Virus record (IMG/VR): IMGVR_UViG_2703718848_000004
DNA length: 7,785 nucleotides
From: a virus
Lineage: Duplodnaviria > Heunggongvirae > Uroviricota > Caudoviricetes
Direction: 5' to 3' (one strand)
Shown: positions 129 through 7,785 of the stretch, in pieces
How positions within the stretch are numbered: position 1 is the first letter of the stretch
Layout of the letters: each line of letters begins with the position of its first letter
The notes under the pieces: model-generated
What the model saw: the letters and a program-made list of their open reading frames with translations, nothing else
Database searches by the model: none
What the model was told of the DNA's origin: nothing
Position numbers and translations under genes: made by a program

Positions 129-466
129 CAGATCACCACTTCGTCAAACTGACACGAAAAATCGGTATAGGTGATATGTTCTGTCGCTGACCACGTTCGA
201 CACACCACTCTGATTTTTCTGTTAATACCCGGCGGGCGCCAAAAAAAAGATTTATAGCCTTCATGCCGGGCTAAAAATTTTTCAAATGAATCACGTTCAT
301 TCGCCTCAACTTTGAAATCACAGGTGAAAACGCGCAGAGAATGATTAAGTCCATTTGGACTTCGTTGCTCATAACCATCGCCAAATCTTACAGTTTTTAT
401 CGATGGTTTATTTTCTGTTTTCATTCCATCCTCTGGTAACCAGTGAAATTCTTCCGTATTAGCCAC
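128..466 (-). CDS. M: minor tail protein M
   Basis: 112-aa ORF. The segment [35 protein letters not shown] and the C-terminal FDEVVI align with lambda M (FRWKVKPGM...VRKVRFGDGYSQRAPAGLN...FEQVVN, from memory). The start is GTG at 466..464, directly after an in-frame TAA, with a GGGGGA Shine-Dalgarno 7 nt upstream. It overlaps the end of the tape measure gene by 8 nt and the start of L by ATGA. Confidence 0.9.
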
Positions 467-3400
467 TTAACATTCCCCCATCACGTCGCATATTTAACAG
501 ATTGCCCTGCACCCGCTGATCAACCATCCCCATAAGTGCTTTTATTGCCTGAGGGCCAATCTCTCCATTCTGGCCGTCATTTTGAATAGTGATTTGGTAT
601 ACAGGGGCATAGGTAATATCTCCGCCTCCATTACCACTTTTACTATTAATAGCTCTGACACCAAGAGAACCATCGGAAGTTCGTGTTAATGGCATAATGG
701 CTTCCGGACCAGCCTCACCAAAAACACCAGCCCCTCTTGCAAAAGCAAAAAATTGCGGGGAATCATAAATACCGTTCGAATACGTGTTCAATGACGGAGA
801 CTCATAAACACCGCCCTTTGCATTCGGAATAAATTTACTAATAGCACTCCCGATAGTTCCTAAAATCCCCCCAGAAGAACTGTTACTAATGCTGTCGAAA
901 ATCCCAGTAATTGAAGCCTTTAATGCTATTCGACTAAGATCCGAAATCACGGAAGTAGCGAAAGAACGAAAATTTGCCTTGCCTGTCGTGACAAAATCAC
1001 CCAACGCATCGGTCATTCCATCAAACATCTGAGTCGTGGTTGATTTTATCTGCTCACTGATATCCTTAGTGTCATCCAGCCAGTTATTGAATCCCTGGGA
1101 GGCACCACTAACCCAGTCTCCTGCCTGAATATCGAGCTGCTCGTTTTTCTGTCTGACAATTTCTTTTTCTCGTTCCAGAGCATCATTCAGAGCCTGCATT
1201 TTCTCCTGAAAAACATGATTTGACATCCCACGGGATTTATCTGCATAGTCACGTTCAAGTTGCAGACGCTGATTGTTATATTCACGTTCAATCCGCAGTA
1301 ATTCCTGCTGGCGTTGCTGATTTTTATCGCCAACCCCATAACCAGCAATCTGAATATCATACCCCTGTTGACGATTATCAATCGAAGCCTGCAATGAATC
1401 ACGCCATGCAGCTATTTCGGCGGATTCCTTGATTAGCCTGTTATTTTTTTCAATCGCAACATTTTTCTCCATCAACGCGGTTATTTCTTCCCGGTGTAAG
1501 AGAAGCGATTTCTGATCCTGGGTTAATTTCGATGACGGTCGTGACTCCAGGTCGGCAATCTGCTGACGCCACTTAACCAGTTCCTGTTCAGAGGAACTTA
1601 ATTTAACGGTTAATTCAGTTTGTGAACTTAGTAACGCATTCTGTTGATTCAGATGATCAATCATTCGTTGGGCAGCATCATCCGAATAACCTTTCGCCTT
1701 TGGTTGCTTTGGATCTTTATAACGCTCATTTATTTGAGCGATAAAATTATTATATTCTTCCTTTGAATACTGACTCTTTAGCTTTTCCAGTTTTGCAAGT
1801 TCACTAGCTCTCTGCTGCTCCCGGGTCTGATATTGTTTTGAAAAGGCATCTGCTCTCTGTCTGAGTTCAATTCCTTCCTGTTGTCGCTTGTTGTAATCGT
1901 TTATTGATGAATTTAGGACGTCCTGAGCAATTTTTTCTGCTTGAAGTACGCCCAATTGCTGCTTTAATCGTGCCAGCCTTTTATTTTGAGCTCCGCCATC
2001 TCCAATGCCACCTAACCCGGAAACTCCGGGTCGGGTATTTTTTTCTATTTCATCAATTTGACGGAGAACATCTGAGATTTTTTGATCAAGGGAGGCCTCA
2101 CGGCCAATATCCAGCATGGAATCCCATGCCCATTTTGCGGAGTCTGCGACAGCTTTCCATGCAGTCTCAAGATAACCAAGATTTTCTTTAATCTGGTTGG
2201 TGCGCTGGATCATTGAGGATGAGTATGCTTCTGTCGCAATGCGGGCGGCCTCCTGCTGGTTCCCTTCATCCTGTAGCGCCTTAATCTGGTTATAAGTCGC
2301 AATTGTCAGAAAATGGTACTGATCATTAAGTTTTGATATGGCACTGACAGGATCCTTTGCAATTTCATTGAAGTCATTAACCAGTTGTTCGGTTGATATT
2401 CCTGTTACTTCGCTCGTTTTTACTATCGCTGTCGTCACTTGCTCCAGCGAACTGCTCGCTACCTTTCCCGAACGCACAAGCTGGTTTAATACTGCCGCCG
2501 CAGCGCCAGTTGTCGAATCAGCCGCATTCCCGGCACGTTGAGCTATATCGGCCAATTGCCCGCTGGTTGTCCCCAACTGATTTCCGGTAAGAATAAGAGA
2601 TTTATTAAATTCGTCCTGCTCCTGAGAGCCTTTATAGTAAGCCAGCCCTAAGACGCCAACGGCTGCTGCGGCCAGGGTAAAAGGATTAATTAATCCCAGC
2701 ACATAAGAACCAACACCTTTGATCGCCGGGCCAATCCCACCGAACATATCTTTTAGCTGGCCGCCCTGCTGCATTAACACCATAAAAGGCGACTGACCAG
2801 TGGACAACCCAACAACAATATCCGTTATTTGTGCAGGCAACATGCGCATAGCAAAAGCCGTTTGTTTTGCCGACATTCCGGTTTTGCTTAATTGAGATTG
2901 AGTAACCTCAAGCTCACTCCGCATAGCACGAAGTTTTCCAGAAAGTTCCTCATACATTTCAGGAGAGAGCATCCCCTTAGCTTTTGCTTCATTGAGCTGT
3001 TTCTGTTGTTCTACCAGACGATTAAAAGCAGTTCCGACAGGGTCAAGTTGAGCAATCAGACGTTGCAAAGCAGCAACCTGTTCATCATGCGCTTTTGCTG
3101 CTTCTCGCTCTGCCTGAGCCTCTCCGGTAAGCTCTCGCCGTGTTTCCTGTATTTTTCGGCTATAATTCTCAAACTGAGAACCATTTATTTTCCCGGATGC
3201 AAACGCAGCATTAAGTTCATCCTGCTGTTGTTCAAGATTTCTTAGCGCCGCAACCAGAGGGTCGATCTTGTCCAGCATTCTTTGAAAGGCCTGAGCCTGC
3301 GATTCCTGCTGGGCGGCAGCAAGTTTTCCGGCCTTCTCGGCTTCTCTCTGCGCTTGCGCAACCCCGCTCAATTCCTCTGTGGTTTCATTAAGTTTACGGA

Positions 3401-3664
3401 CAAGAAATTCATATTCTTCTTTATCAATAAGCCCTTTATCGAAAAATTTCTTTAATTCAGANNNNNNNNNNNNNNNNNNNNNNNNNNNNNNNNNNNNNNN
3501 NNNNNNNNNNNNNNNNNNNNNNNNNNNGTCACTTTCCCTGCGCTATTTGCAGCAGTTTCCCCGGCCTGCGTCATTTTGACTAATGAGGAGGTCAGATTGT
3601 CAGCATTATTTTTTGCTCCAGTGCTATCAATAATTATTGCGAGACGCGAGGTTTGCTCTGCCAT
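459..3664 (-). CDS. H: tail tape measure protein (lambda H-like), interrupted by an assembly gap
   Basis: The 970-aa ORF 459..3371 stays open upstream to the N-run by hand translation (the listed start at 3371 is an internal TTG). A 45-codon N-terminal piece, [20 protein letters not shown]..., begins at ATG 3664..3662 on the far side of the gap. The protein carries lambda H-like motifs ([41 protein letters not shown] versus lambda [40 protein letters not shown]), a long Q/E/K/R-rich coiled-coil-like region, a hydrophobic segment and a lambda-like C-terminus ([16 protein letters not shown]...RRDGGMLSG). It sits immediately upstream of M. Confidence 0.9.
3462..3527. other. run of 66 N (assembly gap or masked bases) inside the tape measure gene
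   Basis: Contiguous N characters. The open reading frames on either side are in different phases (end coordinates 3371 and 3664 differ mod 3), so the N count probably does not equal the true missing length. Confidence 0.95.
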
Positions 3665-3680
3665 TTATTAAAACTCCAGA

Positions 3681-3708
3681 CAACAAAAAGCCCACCGAAG
3701 TGGGTTTC
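3681..3708 (-). terminator. rho-independent terminator-like hairpin 20 nt upstream of the tape measure start
   Basis: Minus-strand RNA reads GAAACCCAC-UUCG-GUGGGCUUUUUGUUGU: a 5-bp GC-rich stem (CCCAC/GUGGG) closed on a cUUCGg tetraloop, followed by a U-tract. The GGAG Shine-Dalgarno and the ATG of the tape measure gene follow directly. Confidence 0.6.
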
Positions 3709-4597: not shown

Positions 4598-4606
4598 TCA
4601 ATGCGT

Positions 4607-4633
4607 CCCCCTGTAGTGCAGTACCACAGGGGG
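4607..4633 (-). promoter_or_regulatory. GC-rich hairpin between the major tail gene and the chaperone gene, overlapping the chaperone ribosome-binding site
   Basis: A perfect 8-bp inverted repeat, ccccctgt (4607..4614) and acaggggg (4626..4633), plus about 3 more inner pairs and a 3-nt loop. On the mRNA the 3' arm ACAGGGGG holds the G-run that is the only Shine-Dalgarno-like element upstream of the 4597 ATG. No U-tract follows. Confidence 0.5.
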
Positions 4634-4645
4634 AATAACGGAAAA

Positions 4646-6404: not shown

Positions 6405-6788
6405 TTACGCTCTCCTTAACTGGATAGAGTAAACTGATGCGGAAGGATCTACACTTGCTGTAATTACCTCGTATCGTTGTAACTGCCTTGATACAGGATC
6501 ATAAATCTCAATAATATGGTCGACAGCTGGTTTATCCGTAACCTCGCATACCAGAGCGGTTAATTTAAGGTCACCATGCAAAATATTAATCCCATCAATT
6601 CTGCCCAGCTTATAACGTGTCAACACGCCTCGCCCGGTATAGATTGCGGTGGATTCGCCGCCAGTTTCCGTCACAGGATCCCAGTGCCGGTGCGTAACGT
6701 AAGAACCAGAAAAATCACTCACGGCGTCCGCTAAATCCTCATCAAAAGCAGCGGCAACCTCTGACTGAATCTCTTCACGAAGCCCCAT
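6405..6788 (-). CDS. head-tail joining protein, putative (lambda FII position)
   Basis: 127-aa ORF that is translationally coupled on both sides (TAATG upstream, TAAATG downstream). The function is assigned by position in the head-to-tail gene order; sequence similarity to lambda FII is at best vague. Confidence 0.55.
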   Translation of the reverse strand: MGLREEIQSEVAAAFDEDLADAVSDFSGSYVTHRHWDPVTETGGESTAIYTGRGVLTRYKLGRIDGINILHGDLKLTALVCEVTDKPAVDHIIEIYDPVSRQLQRYEVITASVDPSASVYSIQLRRA

Positions 6789-7183
6789 TATCCCCCCCTC
6801 ACAACCCTGACTTGTGAGCGACTAAGTCCGTACGGTTTCAGCAGTGCTATCGCAAGCTGTAAATCGGGTTCAAGCAATGCAGTGCTGTTTGCTGGCAACT
6901 CAGAAAATGATTTCGATACACTGACCCCGTCAGCCGACACGGCTTTACTGATAACAACGCCAGAATCATTTTTCTGCTGAAACAACTTACCGAATGAGGC
7001 AATTCTGGCTGCATATGCTCCCGCAAGTTTTACCTCTTCCGGAATACGGGATGGGTTAATTTTCAGGTTGAAGCCATTAAGCCAGGCATTAGCCATTAAA
7101 ACAGCTTTATTTTTAGCGTTCTCACTCGTCCAGGCGTTCCCAAACGCATTATCAACGTCATCACAGGTCACGTAAGTGATCAT
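6788..7183 (-). CDS. head completion / head-tail connector protein, putative (lambda FI position)
   Basis: 131-aa ORF with an AGGAG Shine-Dalgarno 6 nt upstream of ATG 7183..7181. It is the first gene after the capsid region. The function is assigned by position only. Confidence 0.5.
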   Translation of the reverse strand: MITYVTCDDVDNAFGNAWTSENAKNKAVLMANAWLNGFNLKINPSRIPEEVKLAGAYAARIASFGKLFQQKNDSGVVISKAVSADGVSVSKSFSELPANSTALLEPDLQLAIALLKPYGLSRSQVRVVRGG

Positions 7184-7186
7184 GTG

Positions 7187-7363
7187 TTACTCCTGAGTTT
7201 TCCAGCCCATAGCCTTCCAGTTGTCAACTTCATCAGGATGAACATTAGCGATAGTTGGTGCGCCGGGAAACATCTGATAATCGGTCACCATAACCACTAA
7301 CTCAATTTGCGTTTTTTGTGCGGCTTCACGCTGTGCTCTTTGCTCTTTAGTTAATCCGGCCAT
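7187..7363 (-). CDS. candidate small ORF (58 aa) of unknown function, not in the supplied ORF track
   Basis: Hand translation from ATG 7363..7361 to TAA 7189..7187 gives MAGLTKEQRAQREAAQKTQIELVVMVTDYQMFPGAPTIANVHPDEVDNWKAMGWKTQE. It fills a gap of about 220 bp that is otherwise non-coding. A G-run sits just upstream of the ATG. The stop is 3 nt before the next gene's start and the AGGAG of that gene lies inside the ORF's last codons. Confidence 0.4.
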   Translation of the reverse strand: MAGLTKEQRAQREAAQKTQIELVVMVTDYQMFPGAPTIANVHPDEVDNWKAMGWKTQE

Positions 7364-7372
7364 ATGCCCCCC

Positions 7373-7400
7373 ATTAAAAATGGGGCCGAAGCCCCGTTTG
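7373..7400 (-). terminator. rho-independent terminator-like hairpin directly after the probable capsid gene
   Basis: Minus-strand RNA reads CAAACGGGGC-UUCG-GCCCCAUUUUUAAU: a 5-bp G/C stem on a cUUCGg tetraloop followed by a U-tract, starting 6 nt after the TAA stop at 7408..7406. Confidence 0.6.
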
Positions 7401-7405
7401 AATGT

Positions 7406-7785
7406 TTAACCAAGAATCAGACAACCATGTGCCGGCTTCACTGATGAAACACCCCATGCCAGTCCAACTTCATAGCGCACCTGGCGATACTGACGATACA
7501 GTGCAATCTGGAACGTAATCCCTGAAATCGGGTCCGTAACATTCATTACATCATCAGCATTATCGCCACCTTCCGGCATTGCCGGAGTACGGGATGCCAG
7601 CAGAAACGCGTTGCGATCAAACGCCATATTTGCAGTAAAGGCCCCAACAACTGTGATGGCAGTATCATCGGCCAGATCCTGACGCAGTCCGGGCGCTGCA
7701 AGAGTAATCAGATTGCTGGTCGCTGCTGCCACAACATACTGATTCGGATCACCAGCGAACGTAACAATCTGACCTGCAGAAATAC
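7406..7785 (-). CDS. probable major capsid protein, C-terminal fragment (continues past the right edge of the window)
   Basis: By hand translation the frame is open from the window edge (...ISAGQIVTFAGDPNQYVV) through the listed GTG at 7732, so the 108-aa track ORF is the tail of a longer protein. The segment AFTANMAFDRNAFLLASRTPAMPEGG feels capsid-like. The call rests on position upstream of the head-tail joining genes and the terminator that follows it, not on confirmed homology. Confidence 0.5.
   Translation of the reverse strand, partial: ISAGQIVTFAGDPNQYVVAAATSNLITLAAPGLRQDLADDTAITVVGAFTANMAFDRNAFLLASRTPAMPEGGDNADDVMNVTDPISGITFQIALYRQYRQVRYEVGLAWGVSSVKPAHGCLILG

What the first reader, a model, noticed from the sequence alone, without database searches (positions are those of the whole stretch)
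7184..7405. Terminator after the capsid gene followed by an unlisted 58-codon ORF
The probable capsid gene is followed at once by a cUUCGg/U-tract terminator (7373..7400), and then by a 58-codon ORF (7187..7363) that the supplied track omits, presumably for being under its length cutoff. The ORF has plausible codon usage and a lysine/glutamine-rich N-terminus. It ends 3 nt before the next gene's ATG and contains that gene's AGGAG in its last codons, so the two would be translationally coupled. It could be a small head assembly or decoration-associated protein, or a non-coding leader that happens to be open.
Basis: seen in the sequence. Interest (0 to 1): 0.5.

Follow-up and report, generated by a model that had tools for sequence, protein, structure and literature searches.

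The report
Small conserved phage gene after capsid gene
The 58-codon reading frame is a real, strongly conserved phage gene of unknown function. It sits behind a conserved RNA hairpin just after the capsid gene of a common E. coli prophage, is already in public databases as a "hypothetical protein", and is laid out like phage lambda's FI packaging helper without being detectably related to it.

Summary
All features lie on the minus strand.

- **Layout:** capsid-gene stop (7408-7406), GGGGC-UUCG-GCCCC hairpin (7395-7382), U-tract, 58-codon ORF (7363-7187), then the AGGAG and ATG (7183) of the head-tail adaptor gene, 3 nt after the ORF stop.
- **Origin:** a Rac-like lambdoid prophage present in 761 of 5426 complete E. 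coli genomes. RefSeq already annotates the ORF (WP_000908084.1, hypothetical protein; PHROG 1514, unknown function).
- **It codes for protein:** synonymous sites are saturated (pS about 0.6) while pN is 0.08 to 0.29. 490 representative homologues exist. In every locus examined, across several phyla, it sits between a phrog_283 (P22-type) capsid gene and a head-completion gene.
- **Architecture:** an N-terminal helix motif (MAGLTKEQRAQR), a Q/E-rich linker of 0 to about 140 residues (absent in this copy), and a 37-residue beta-beta-alpha-beta domain (…ADVHPDEV.NW…GW) with no significant fold match.
- **Hairpin:** present at this junction in all 29 loci checked, including lambda E-FI and N15, with unrelated stem sequences.
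- **Best reading:** a leaky terminator or mRNA-stabilising hairpin, followed by a capsid-associated accessory protein that resembles lambda gpFI in position and architecture only. All homology tests against gpFI were negative.

Ordinary overall; interest is low to moderate.

The parts
7406..7785 (-). 3' part of the major capsid protein gene (P22-type, phrog_283). The stop TAA is at 7408-7406, and the gene runs off the window end.
   Evidence: Pfam P22_CoatProtein E 5.3e-5 on the fragment. The full-length gene in E. coli 7/2 is annotated 'P22 phage major capsid protein family protein' and matches phrog_283 at E 2.3e-136.
7382..7395 (-). GC-rich hairpin GGGGC-UUCG-GCCCC, starting 10 nt after the capsid stop codon
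   Evidence: Terminator scan. Folds at -11.1 kcal/mol, z = -2.4. A hairpin occupies the same place in all 29 related junctions, including lambda E-FI, HK639 and N15, with different stem sequences in distant hosts. The N15 record annotates its equivalent as a putative rho-independent terminator.
7373..7381 (-). U-rich tract A-UUUUU-AAU following the hairpin
   Evidence: Sequence. Enterobacterial relatives have a U-tract here (for example UUUUUUAAU, UUUGUUUUU), but it is absent in several GC-rich hosts (L028, L035, L037, L038).
7367..7372 (-). G-run (GGGGGG), the Shine-Dalgarno-like element of the small ORF, 3 nt before the ATG
   Evidence: Sequence. Homologues carry a canonical GGAGG at the equivalent position, 5 to 8 nt before the ATG.
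7187..7363 (-). 58-codon protein-coding gene (identical to WP_000908084.1; PHROG 1514, function unknown)
   Evidence: ORF. Annotated in RefSeq and GenBank. phrog_1514 at E 3.5e-43. Homologues. Median dN/dS about 0.05 for the N-terminus and 0.21 for the C-terminus, with saturated synonymous sites.
7316..7363 (-). Codons 1-16: conserved N-terminal basic helix motif MAGLTKEQRAQREAAQ
   Evidence: Invariant or nearly invariant columns. pN 0.08 against pS 0.64. AF2 predicts a helix at residues 6-16 with low confidence. The same motif occurs in beta-proteobacterial homologues.
7190..7300 (-). Codons 22-58: conserved 37-residue beta-beta-alpha-beta mini-domain (LVxMV..….P.A.VHPDEV.NW…GW)
   Evidence: AF2 pLDDT above 90. 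It is the core of the 490 representative homologues. The same fold is predicted in a distant member, P0194. No significant match in PDB or BFVD apart from uncharacterised family members.
7190..7194 (-). AGGAG Shine-Dalgarno of the downstream adaptor gene, inside the last two sense codons of the small ORF
   Evidence: Sequence: …CAG GAG TAA CAC ATG, with 6 nt between AGGAG and ATG.
6788..7183 (-). Head-tail adaptor Ad1 gene (131 aa), starting 3 nt after the small ORF's stop
   Evidence: phrog_493 'head-tail adaptor Ad1' at E 7e-49. Pfam DnaT_2 hit is weak.

Best explanation
The window carries the head-to-tail part of the late operon of a Rac-like lambdoid prophage, transcribed on the minus strand.

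**Hairpin.** A short, very stable UUCG hairpin with a U-tract follows the major capsid gene directly. It most likely works as a leaky intrinsic terminator, as a 3'-exonuclease barrier, or as both. Either way, capsid-gene message would end up more abundant than message for the low-copy genes downstream, while antiterminated polymerase reads through to the connector and tail genes. This mechanism is inferred; only the conservation of the hairpin is shown.

**Gene.** The 58-codon ORF behind the hairpin is a real gene, and this is shown. It has its own ribosome-binding site, and its stop is packed against the adaptor gene so that the two can be translationally coupled.

**Protein.** It has two modules: a basic N-terminal helix and a 37-residue beta-beta-alpha-beta domain. 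In relatives these are joined by an acidic Q/E-rich linker of freely varying length, which this copy has lost.

**Proposed function (inferred, about 0.35).** The gene always travels with one capsid-protein family (phrog_283), so the mini-domain most likely binds the capsid protein or prohead. The other module (the N-terminal helix here, a HeH/Rho_N-like motif in distant relatives) would then recruit a second partner such as the terminase-DNA complex. On this reading the protein is a sub-stoichiometric head-assembly or DNA-packaging helper that works like lambda gpFI but is not detectably homologous to it.

**Sub-confidences.** Real protein-coding gene, about 0.97. Conserved functional hairpin that lowers or stabilises rather than ends transcription, about 0.6. 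FI-like packaging chaperone mechanism, about 0.35.
For: **Coding**
- phrog_1514 full-length match at E 3.5e-43.
- 417 homologous clusters and 490 representatives at E<=1e-3 among 1.84 billion.
- Among 41 distinct enterobacterial alleles, pS is 0.61-0.64 and pN 0.08-0.29.
- Indels in the linker are always in frame.
- Homologues have GGAGG before the ATG.
- 105 fetched loci carry an intact ORF.

**Context**
- The ORF always follows a capsid gene of about 380 aa and precedes a head-completion gene.
- The capsid gene matches phrog_283 in the window type, in Nitrospinota L031 and in Pandoraea L035, and Pfam P22_CoatProtein in 4 of 5 distant loci.
- The downstream gene is DnaT_2/Ad1 or Phage_attach.

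**Architecture**
- Alignments.
- AF2 pLDDT above 90 for residues 20-58.
- In the distant member P0194, AF2 predicts the same domain, a disordered linker and a helix-loop-helix, with sub-threshold Rho_N/HeH hits.

**Parallels with lambda**
- The order E, UUCG hairpin (41 nt intergenic), FI, head-completion gene.
- The FI family has an N-terminal helical, SAP-like module, an acidic repeat linker of variable length, (DST)n, and a small C-terminal domain.
- gpFI bridges the capsid and the terminase-DNA complex (review PMC13595911).

**Hairpin**
-.
- N15 annotates the equivalent stem-loop as a putative terminator.
- No promoter-like site lies downstream of it.
Against: **No detectable homology to gpFI**
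- Pfam PF14000 is not hit.
- hhalign probability is 0.1-0.4%.
- FI C-domains score no better than shuffled sequences against the family HMM.
- PHROG families differ: 1514 against 92.

**Other points**
- The window's copy lacks the linker that a tethering model would seem to need.
- gpFI function has been established only for lambda-type cos packaging, and this phage has a different terminase set.
- No expression, virion-proteomics or binding data were available.
- The hairpin stem is only 5 bp, and by energy alone it is not exceptional in context.
- Termination efficiency is unknown, and the loss of the U-tract in some relatives argues against termination as the conserved role.
Confidence: 0.6

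Rival explanations
1. The protein is a capsid decoration or cement protein that binds the outside of the mature shell, in the manner of T4 Soc, lambda gpD or P22-like Dec. The Q/E-rich linker in relatives would be a surface-exposed spacer.
For: It is strictly adjacent to one capsid-protein family and co-inherited with it. It has a small, independently folding domain. The linker is hypervariable and low in complexity, as expected for an exposed segment.
Against: No sequence or fold similarity to any known decoration protein. The gene lies downstream of an attenuating hairpin and is coupled to a 12-copy adaptor gene, which is an odd place for a protein needed in hundreds of copies. Lambda D, by contrast, lies upstream of E with no hairpin between them. 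The second module (a basic helix or a HeH motif) looks like a binding module for a nucleic acid or another partner, not a capsid staple.
Confidence: 0.15
2. The protein is a low-copy head-completion or portal-vertex factor, comparable to lambda gpW. It would act with the adaptor Ad1 after packaging, which would explain its translational coupling to the adaptor gene.
For: A 3-nt spacer, with the adaptor's AGGAG inside the ORF. Tight or overlapping junctions with the downstream gene are conserved. Its size is similar to that of small head-completion proteins.
Against: The neck set is already complete: Ad1, Hc1, tail completion and tail terminator. The downstream partner changes between relatives (DnaT_2 type in most, Phage_attach in L031, phrog_14539 in L035), whereas the upstream capsid family stays the same. 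No similarity to gpW or other connector proteins was found in PDB searches.
Confidence: 0.15
3. The hairpin is an efficient operon-ending terminator, and the small ORF and downstream genes are transcribed from their own promoter.
For: It has canonical terminator anatomy in enterobacterial relatives: a 7-bp stem with a U6-8 tract in L005.
Against: No promoter-like site lies between the hairpin and the ORF or nearby on the minus strand, and only 18 nt separate the hairpin from the start codon. The gene order is that of a single lambdoid late operon. Similar hairpins punctuate other junctions of the same operon.
Confidence: 0.05
4. The ORF is a non-coding leader that happens to be open.
For: It is short, and no Pfam or NCBIfam family covers it.
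Against: There is strong purifying selection with saturated synonymous sites. Hundreds of homologues span several phyla with a conserved domain. Length variation is in frame. The domain is predicted to fold with confidence.
Confidence: 0.02

Closest known systems
PHROG 1514 / RefSeq WP_000908084.1 (hypothetical protein of Rac-like prophages; HK639 gp07)
   Same: The window's protein is identical to WP_000908084.1 and matches the phrog_1514 profile end to end at E 3.5e-43. HK639_07 is 62% identical and sits in the same position.
   Different: Nothing differs; this is the family it belongs to. The family has no assigned function, no Pfam or NCBIfam model and no solved structure.
Bacteriophage lambda gpFI, DNA-packaging chaperone (Pfam PF14000, phrog_92, PDB 2LSM)
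   Same: - The gene sits between the major capsid gene and the head-completion genes.
- A UUCG hairpin precedes it in an intergenic region of about 41 nt.
- It has an N-terminal helical module, an acidic low-complexity linker whose length varies by tandem repeats, and a small C-terminal alpha/beta domain.
- Distant phrog_1514 members pair the domain with a HeH/Rho_N-like motif, and the gpFI N-terminus gives a weak SAP hit.
   Different: - No detectable sequence homology.
- No fold match was retrieved.
- The partner capsid protein is P22-type (phrog_283), not lambda E-type.
- The core domain is smaller (37 aa against about 50).
- The window's copy has no linker.
- Function has not been tested.
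Intrinsic (rho-independent) terminators and 3' stabilising hairpins inside phage late operons, for example the stem-loop annotated after N15 gene 8
   Same: A GC-rich stem, a UUCG tetraloop and a U-tract immediately after the stop codon of the most highly expressed structural gene.
   Different: The stem is only 5 bp and the U-tract is interrupted (AUUUUUAAU). Relatives in GC-rich hosts keep the hairpin without a U-tract. Activity has not been measured, and in a Q-antiterminated operon it would be largely bypassed.

Membership tests
PHROG 1514 (unknown function) | Significant full-length match to the family profile | tested here: met
   E 3.5e-43, residues 1-58 matched to profile positions 1-58 of 58. 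Distant homologues from beta-proteobacteria and Nitrospinota hit the same profile at 1e-8 to 1e-12.
PHROG 1514 (unknown function) | Position directly after a phrog_283 / P22-type major capsid gene and before a head-completion gene | tested here: met
   Window. All loci L003-L039 that have an upstream ORF. Pfam and PHROG checks on distant loci.
Lambda gpFI packaging chaperone (Pfam PF14000 / phrog_92) | Sequence match to the family model | tested here: not met
   No Pfam hit at E<=0.1. hhalign probability 0.1-0.4% against lambda FI and against an FI alignment that includes N15, phi80, mEp237 and MStein. FI C-domains score no better than shuffles against the family HMM.
Lambda gpFI packaging chaperone (Pfam PF14000 / phrog_92) | C-terminal domain fold like PDB 2LSM | tested here: inconclusive
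Lambda gpFI packaging chaperone (Pfam PF14000 / phrog_92) | Gene located between the major capsid gene and the head-completion genes | tested here: met
Lambda gpFI packaging chaperone (Pfam PF14000 / phrog_92) | Two modules joined by a flexible acidic linker | tested here: inconclusive
   Met by the family, with linkers up to about 140 aa. In this 58-aa copy the linker is deleted.
Lambda gpFI packaging chaperone (Pfam PF14000 / phrog_92) | Binds the major capsid protein or prohead and stimulates terminase-dependent packaging | not testable with these tools
   Needs genetics and biochemistry. gpFI activity is taken from the review PMC13595911.
Intrinsic terminator | GC-rich stem-loop followed directly by a U-tract | tested here: met
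   5 GC pairs, a UUCG loop and 5 U within the next 8 nt.
Intrinsic terminator | Causes transcript release at the U-tract | not testable with these tools
   No transcriptome data were available. Loss of the U-tract in GC-rich relatives and the essential genes downstream argue for, at most, partial termination.
Capsid decoration proteins (lambda gpD, T4 Soc, Dec and similar) | Sequence or fold similarity to a known decoration protein | tested here: not met

The most novel reading that the evidence does not exclude
PHROG 1514 would be a second, non-homologous class of FI-type packaging chaperones.

- The 37-residue VHPDEV mini-domain would dock on P22-type (phrog_283) procapsids.
- The interchangeable second module (the MAGLTKEQRAQR helix or a HeH motif) would capture the terminase-DNA complex.
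- Linker length (0 to about 140 residues of Q/E repeats) would be a freely evolving tether.

This would make capsid-tethered packaging helpers a general, convergently evolved feature of tailed phages across Proteobacteria and Nitrospinota, not a lambda peculiarity.
Probability: 0.3. Interest if true: 0.55.

Novelty: already known. Interest (0 to 1): 0.3.

Why it matters
For annotation, the result is simple. The window's gene track should include this 58-aa gene, and the hairpin before it is a conserved piece of operon punctuation, not noise.

The family is large (490 representatives at 50% identity) and present in 14% of complete E. coli genomes, yet it has no function, no Pfam model and no structure. 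Its strict linkage to one capsid-protein family and its lambda-FI-like layout yield a cheap, testable hypothesis: a packaging or assembly helper that binds the prohead.

If that hypothesis holds, a function known only from lambda-like phages would extend to a second, unrelated protein family. If it fails, the gene remains one of many small conserved phage ORFs of unknown role.

Tried and rejected
1. **Homology to lambda gpFI.** I noticed by eye a resemblance between lambda 'LVKLH…TRDEP…PGTAFRV' and the family's 'LVKMVRDEP…PGGPTTADV'. Profile-profile tests (hhalign probability 0.1-0.4%) and a shuffle test (40 of 400 shuffles score as well as lambda, and about half do for N15, phi80 and mEp237) show it is not significant, so I dropped it.
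3. **Family and sequence searches.** Pfam, NCBIfam and PDB sequence searches with the protein and with two profiles found nothing.
4. **Rfam.** A scan of 7100-7500 found no known RNA family.
5. **Hairpin energy.** In a 61-nt context the energy is not significant, so the case for the hairpin rests on comparative data.
6. **Literature.** The primary gpFI structure paper (Popovic 2012) is not in the held library. Searches for work on hairpins after capsid genes returned nothing directly relevant. Papers that mention HK639 do not discuss gp07.
7. **gpFI homologue search.** The homologous-protein search with gpFI returned only near-identical sequences. I obtained diverged FI sequences by tblastn against phage records instead.

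Full report
**What is in the window**

All long ORFs lie on the minus strand and form a phage late operon. The order is:
- major capsid protein (3' part, stop at 7408-7406)
- the 58-codon ORF (7363-7187)
- head-tail adaptor Ad1 (7183-6788)
- head closure Hc1
- tail completion protein
- tail terminator
- tail tube
- two tail assembly chaperone ORFs
- tape-measure protein

A 786-nt segment spanning the finding (window 7000-7785) is 100% identical to a prophage that lies next to trkG and contains ydaY in E. coli strain 7/2, which marks it as a full-length Rac-type lambdoid prophage. The ORF region occurs in 761 of 5426 complete E. coli genomes. It also occurs in GenBank records named as phages, such as vB_EcoS-683R6.

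**Checking the observation**

On the minus strand the sequence reads: TAA acattcaaac GGGGC TTCG GCCCC ATTTTTAAT GGGGGG CAT ATG … CAG GAG TAA CAC ATG.
- The hairpin is at 7395-7382 and the U-tract at 7381-7373.
- The ORF runs from 7363 to 7187.
- The downstream gene's AGGAG (7194-7190) lies in the last two sense codons.
- There is a 3-nt spacer before that gene's ATG at 7183.

The terminator scan lists the hairpin. On its own it folds at -11.1 kcal/mol with z = -2.4. Within 61 nt of context the energy is unremarkable, z = -0.7, so the single sequence alone is weak evidence.

The one factual correction concerns annotation. The ORF is not missing from public records. RefSeq has it as WP_000908084.1, 'hypothetical protein', and GenBank phage records annotate it as well.

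**Is the ORF a gene?**

Yes, on several independent grounds.
- It matches PHROG 1514 end to end at E 3.5e-43.
- A word-indexed search found 417 homologous clusters in Escherichia, Salmonella, Citrobacter, Klebsiella, Raoultella, Atlantibacter and others.
- An exhaustive profile search found 490 representatives at E<=1e-3 among 1.84 billion.
- Among 41 distinct enterobacterial alleles, synonymous sites are saturated (pS 0.61-0.64). Non-synonymous divergence is 0.08 in the first 15 codons and 0.29 in the last 37. Median dN/dS is 0.05 and 0.21 respectively.
- Length differences are always in frame.
- Homologues carry a canonical GGAGG 5 to 8 nt before the ATG, where this copy has GGGGGG.
- A few frameshifted alleles exist, but only as clusters of one or two sequences.

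The 'open by chance' reading is rejected.

**Anatomy of the protein family**

The family has three parts.
- An almost invariant N-terminal motif, MAGLTKEQRAQR(E/A)A. AF2 predicts a helix at residues 6-16 with low confidence.
- A Q/E-rich low-complexity linker.
- A 37-residue core, LVxMV(T/R)D…PG(A/G)P..A(D/N)VHPDEV.NW…GW.

AF2 predicts the core with pLDDT above 90 as strand, strand, helix and short strand.

The linker varies widely in length. It is absent in the window's copy, which is the shortest form. It is 12 to 25 residues in most relatives. It reaches about 140 residues of (EQQQ)n in an Enterobacter hormaechei prophage, and a long polyQ run in Leclercia.

In distant members the core domain is combined with other partners. 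Some have different N-termini. Others have the core first, followed by a C-terminal helix-loop-helix that gives sub-threshold Rho_N and HeH hits. AF2 folds that region as two helices separated from the core by a disordered stretch.

**Context across relatives**

The gene follows the capsid gene in every genome locus where an upstream ORF was present, from Enterobacteriaceae to Methyloversatilis, Pandoraea, Variovorax, Steroidobacter and Nitrospinota. The capsid gene is about 380 aa and belongs to the same family throughout. It matches phrog_283 at E 1e-76 to 1e-136 in the three cases tested, and Pfam P22_CoatProtein in 4 of 5 distant loci. The gene precedes a head-completion gene whose family changes between loci: DnaT_2/Ad1 in most, Phage_attach in L031 and phrog_14539 in L035. 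The constant partner is thus the capsid protein. I infer that the core domain acts on the capsid protein or the prohead.

**The hairpin across relatives**

I folded the stretch from the capsid stop to the ORF start in 29 loci. Every one has a GC-rich stem with a tetraloop, most often UUCG, close behind the stop codon.
- Enteric versions share GGGGC/GCCCC.
- Distant hosts use unrelated stems, for example AAGGGAGGGG/CCCCTCCCTT in Nitrospinota, CCGGGGGC/GCTCCCGG in Variovorax and a 12-bp GC stem in Methyloversatilis. The structure, not the sequence, is what recurs.
- By a strict criterion (perfect stem of at least 5 bp with at least 4 GC pairs), 21 of 27 junctions have a hairpin, against 0.11 expected from the density elsewhere in the same loci.
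- U-tracts follow the hairpin in enteric phages but are missing in several GC-rich hosts.

Lambda has the same arrangement between E and FI: ATGGCCC-TTCG-GGGCCAT in a 41-nt intergenic region. So do mEp237, N15 and an Enterobacter Ravinvirus. The N15 record annotates its copy as a 'putative rho-indep. transcription terminator'.

In the window, further hairpins lie after the tail-tube gene and before the tape-measure gene. The HK639 record marks four terminators inside its late operon.

No promoter-like site lies downstream of the hairpin, and every connector and tail gene depends on transcription passing it. I therefore read it as a leaky terminator, an exonuclease barrier, or both. It would raise capsid message relative to downstream message and would be bypassed by the antiterminated polymerase typical of lambdoid late operons. 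That last point is established knowledge for lambda Q. One search gives a recent parallel for terminators inside a phage-like cluster being bypassed by antitermination. The mechanism here is inferred and was not measured.

**What the protein does**

No function can be transferred by homology.
- Pfam, NCBIfam and PDB sequence searches are empty.
- Foldseek against PDB has a best E of 2.4.
- BFVD returns only uncharacterised family members.

The closest analogue by layout is lambda gpFI.
- Its gene sits in the same slot behind the same kind of hairpin.
- The protein has an N-terminal helical module with a weak SAP hit.
- It has an acidic linker that varies by tandem repeats, (DST)n in N15, phi80 and MStein.
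- It has a small C-terminal domain.

According to the literature summarised in PMC13595911, gpFI bridges the capsid and the terminase-DNA complex.

I tested homology directly, and it fails. hhalign probability is 0.1-0.4%, and FI C-domains score no better than shuffles against the family HMM. The claim is therefore 'works like', at about 0.35, and not 'is a member of'.

Three points argue against even the analogy.
- The window's copy has lost the linker.
- The terminase set differs from lambda's.
- No experimental data exist.

The rivals are a decoration protein and a portal-vertex or neck factor.
- Decoration is disfavoured by the gene's position behind the hairpin, by its coupling to a 12-copy gene, and by the lack of any resemblance to known decoration proteins.
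- A neck factor is disfavoured because the neck set is already complete and because the downstream partner is the one that varies.

**Verdict**

The feature is already annotated as a hypothetical protein and is common in E. coli. The hairpin is normal punctuation of lambdoid late operons.

What is not known is the function of a large and strongly conserved family. The comparative data here give a concrete hypothesis: a prohead-binding, FI-like helper. That makes the finding mildly interesting but not surprising.

Noticed in passing
window 3691-3704 (minus strand), with U-tract 3681-3690: A second UUCG hairpin with a U-tract, CCCAC-TTCG-GTGGG followed by CTTTTTGTTG. It lies 27 nt upstream of the tape-measure gene's ATG (3664), between the chaperone ORFs and the tape-measure gene.
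   Followed up: partly
window about 4606-4640 (minus strand): A hairpin CCCCCTGT…ACAGGGGG immediately after the tail-tube gene stop (4646), without a U-tract. Together with the HK639 and N15 annotations, it suggests that hairpins punctuate the operon after each abundant structural gene.
   Followed up: partly
window about 3452-3530: A run of N (masked or unknown bases) inside the tape-measure gene splits it into two listed ORFs (459-3371 and 3452-3664).
   Followed up: no
L022 2027-2620 (Enterobacter hormaechei), L017 2282-2629 (Leclercia), L021, L023, L027: The linker of the homologous protein expands to about 140 residues of (EQQQ)n, or to long polyQ or (DQQQ)n runs, always in frame. The window's copy has no linker at all. 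The unrelated lambda FI family shows the same behaviour with (DST)n repeats (N15, phi80, MStein).
   Followed up: partly
L040 2501-3007 (Runella salmonicolor, Bacteroidota): A 168-aa ORF begins with MAGLTKEQRAQRAAEK, identical to the enterobacterial N-terminal motif, but continues into an unrelated acidic, T/E-rich sequence. Its neighbours have no PHROG or Pfam hits. This could be a mobile N-terminal module or coincidence.
   Followed up: partly
protein P0123 (223 aa, from the representative library): A ParB_N domain fused in frame to the complete 58-aa protein. It probably derives from a deletion that joined the prophage's ParB/Srx gene to this ORF.
   Followed up: no
proteins P0154, P0175, P0194, P0197, P0224, P0229, P0240, P0204: Distant family members place the VHPDEV core at the N-terminus and add a C-terminal HeH/Rho_N-like helix-loop-helix. 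P0204 has two cores flanking a HeH motif. Small 'Rho_N-like' phage proteins encoded next to capsid genes may therefore be functionally linked to this family.
   Followed up: partly
window 7367-7386 (minus strand): The G6 run that serves as the ORF's ribosome-binding site could also pair with the CCCC of the hairpin's 3' arm. Relatives have GGAGG here, so this alternative pairing is specific to this lineage. Its significance is unknown.
   Followed up: no
proteins P0025, P0027, P0030, P0031, P0063: Rare frameshifted alleles of the ORF in E. coli assemblies, with one or two sequences each. They may reflect prophage decay or sequencing errors.
   Followed up: no
protein P0183 (588 aa): A eukaryote-like protein with a SAM domain and four repeats resembling …TD.TTL.G..G.A..HP.CV hit the family profile at E 1e-9. 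This is probably convergent or compositional and was not examined.
   Followed up: no
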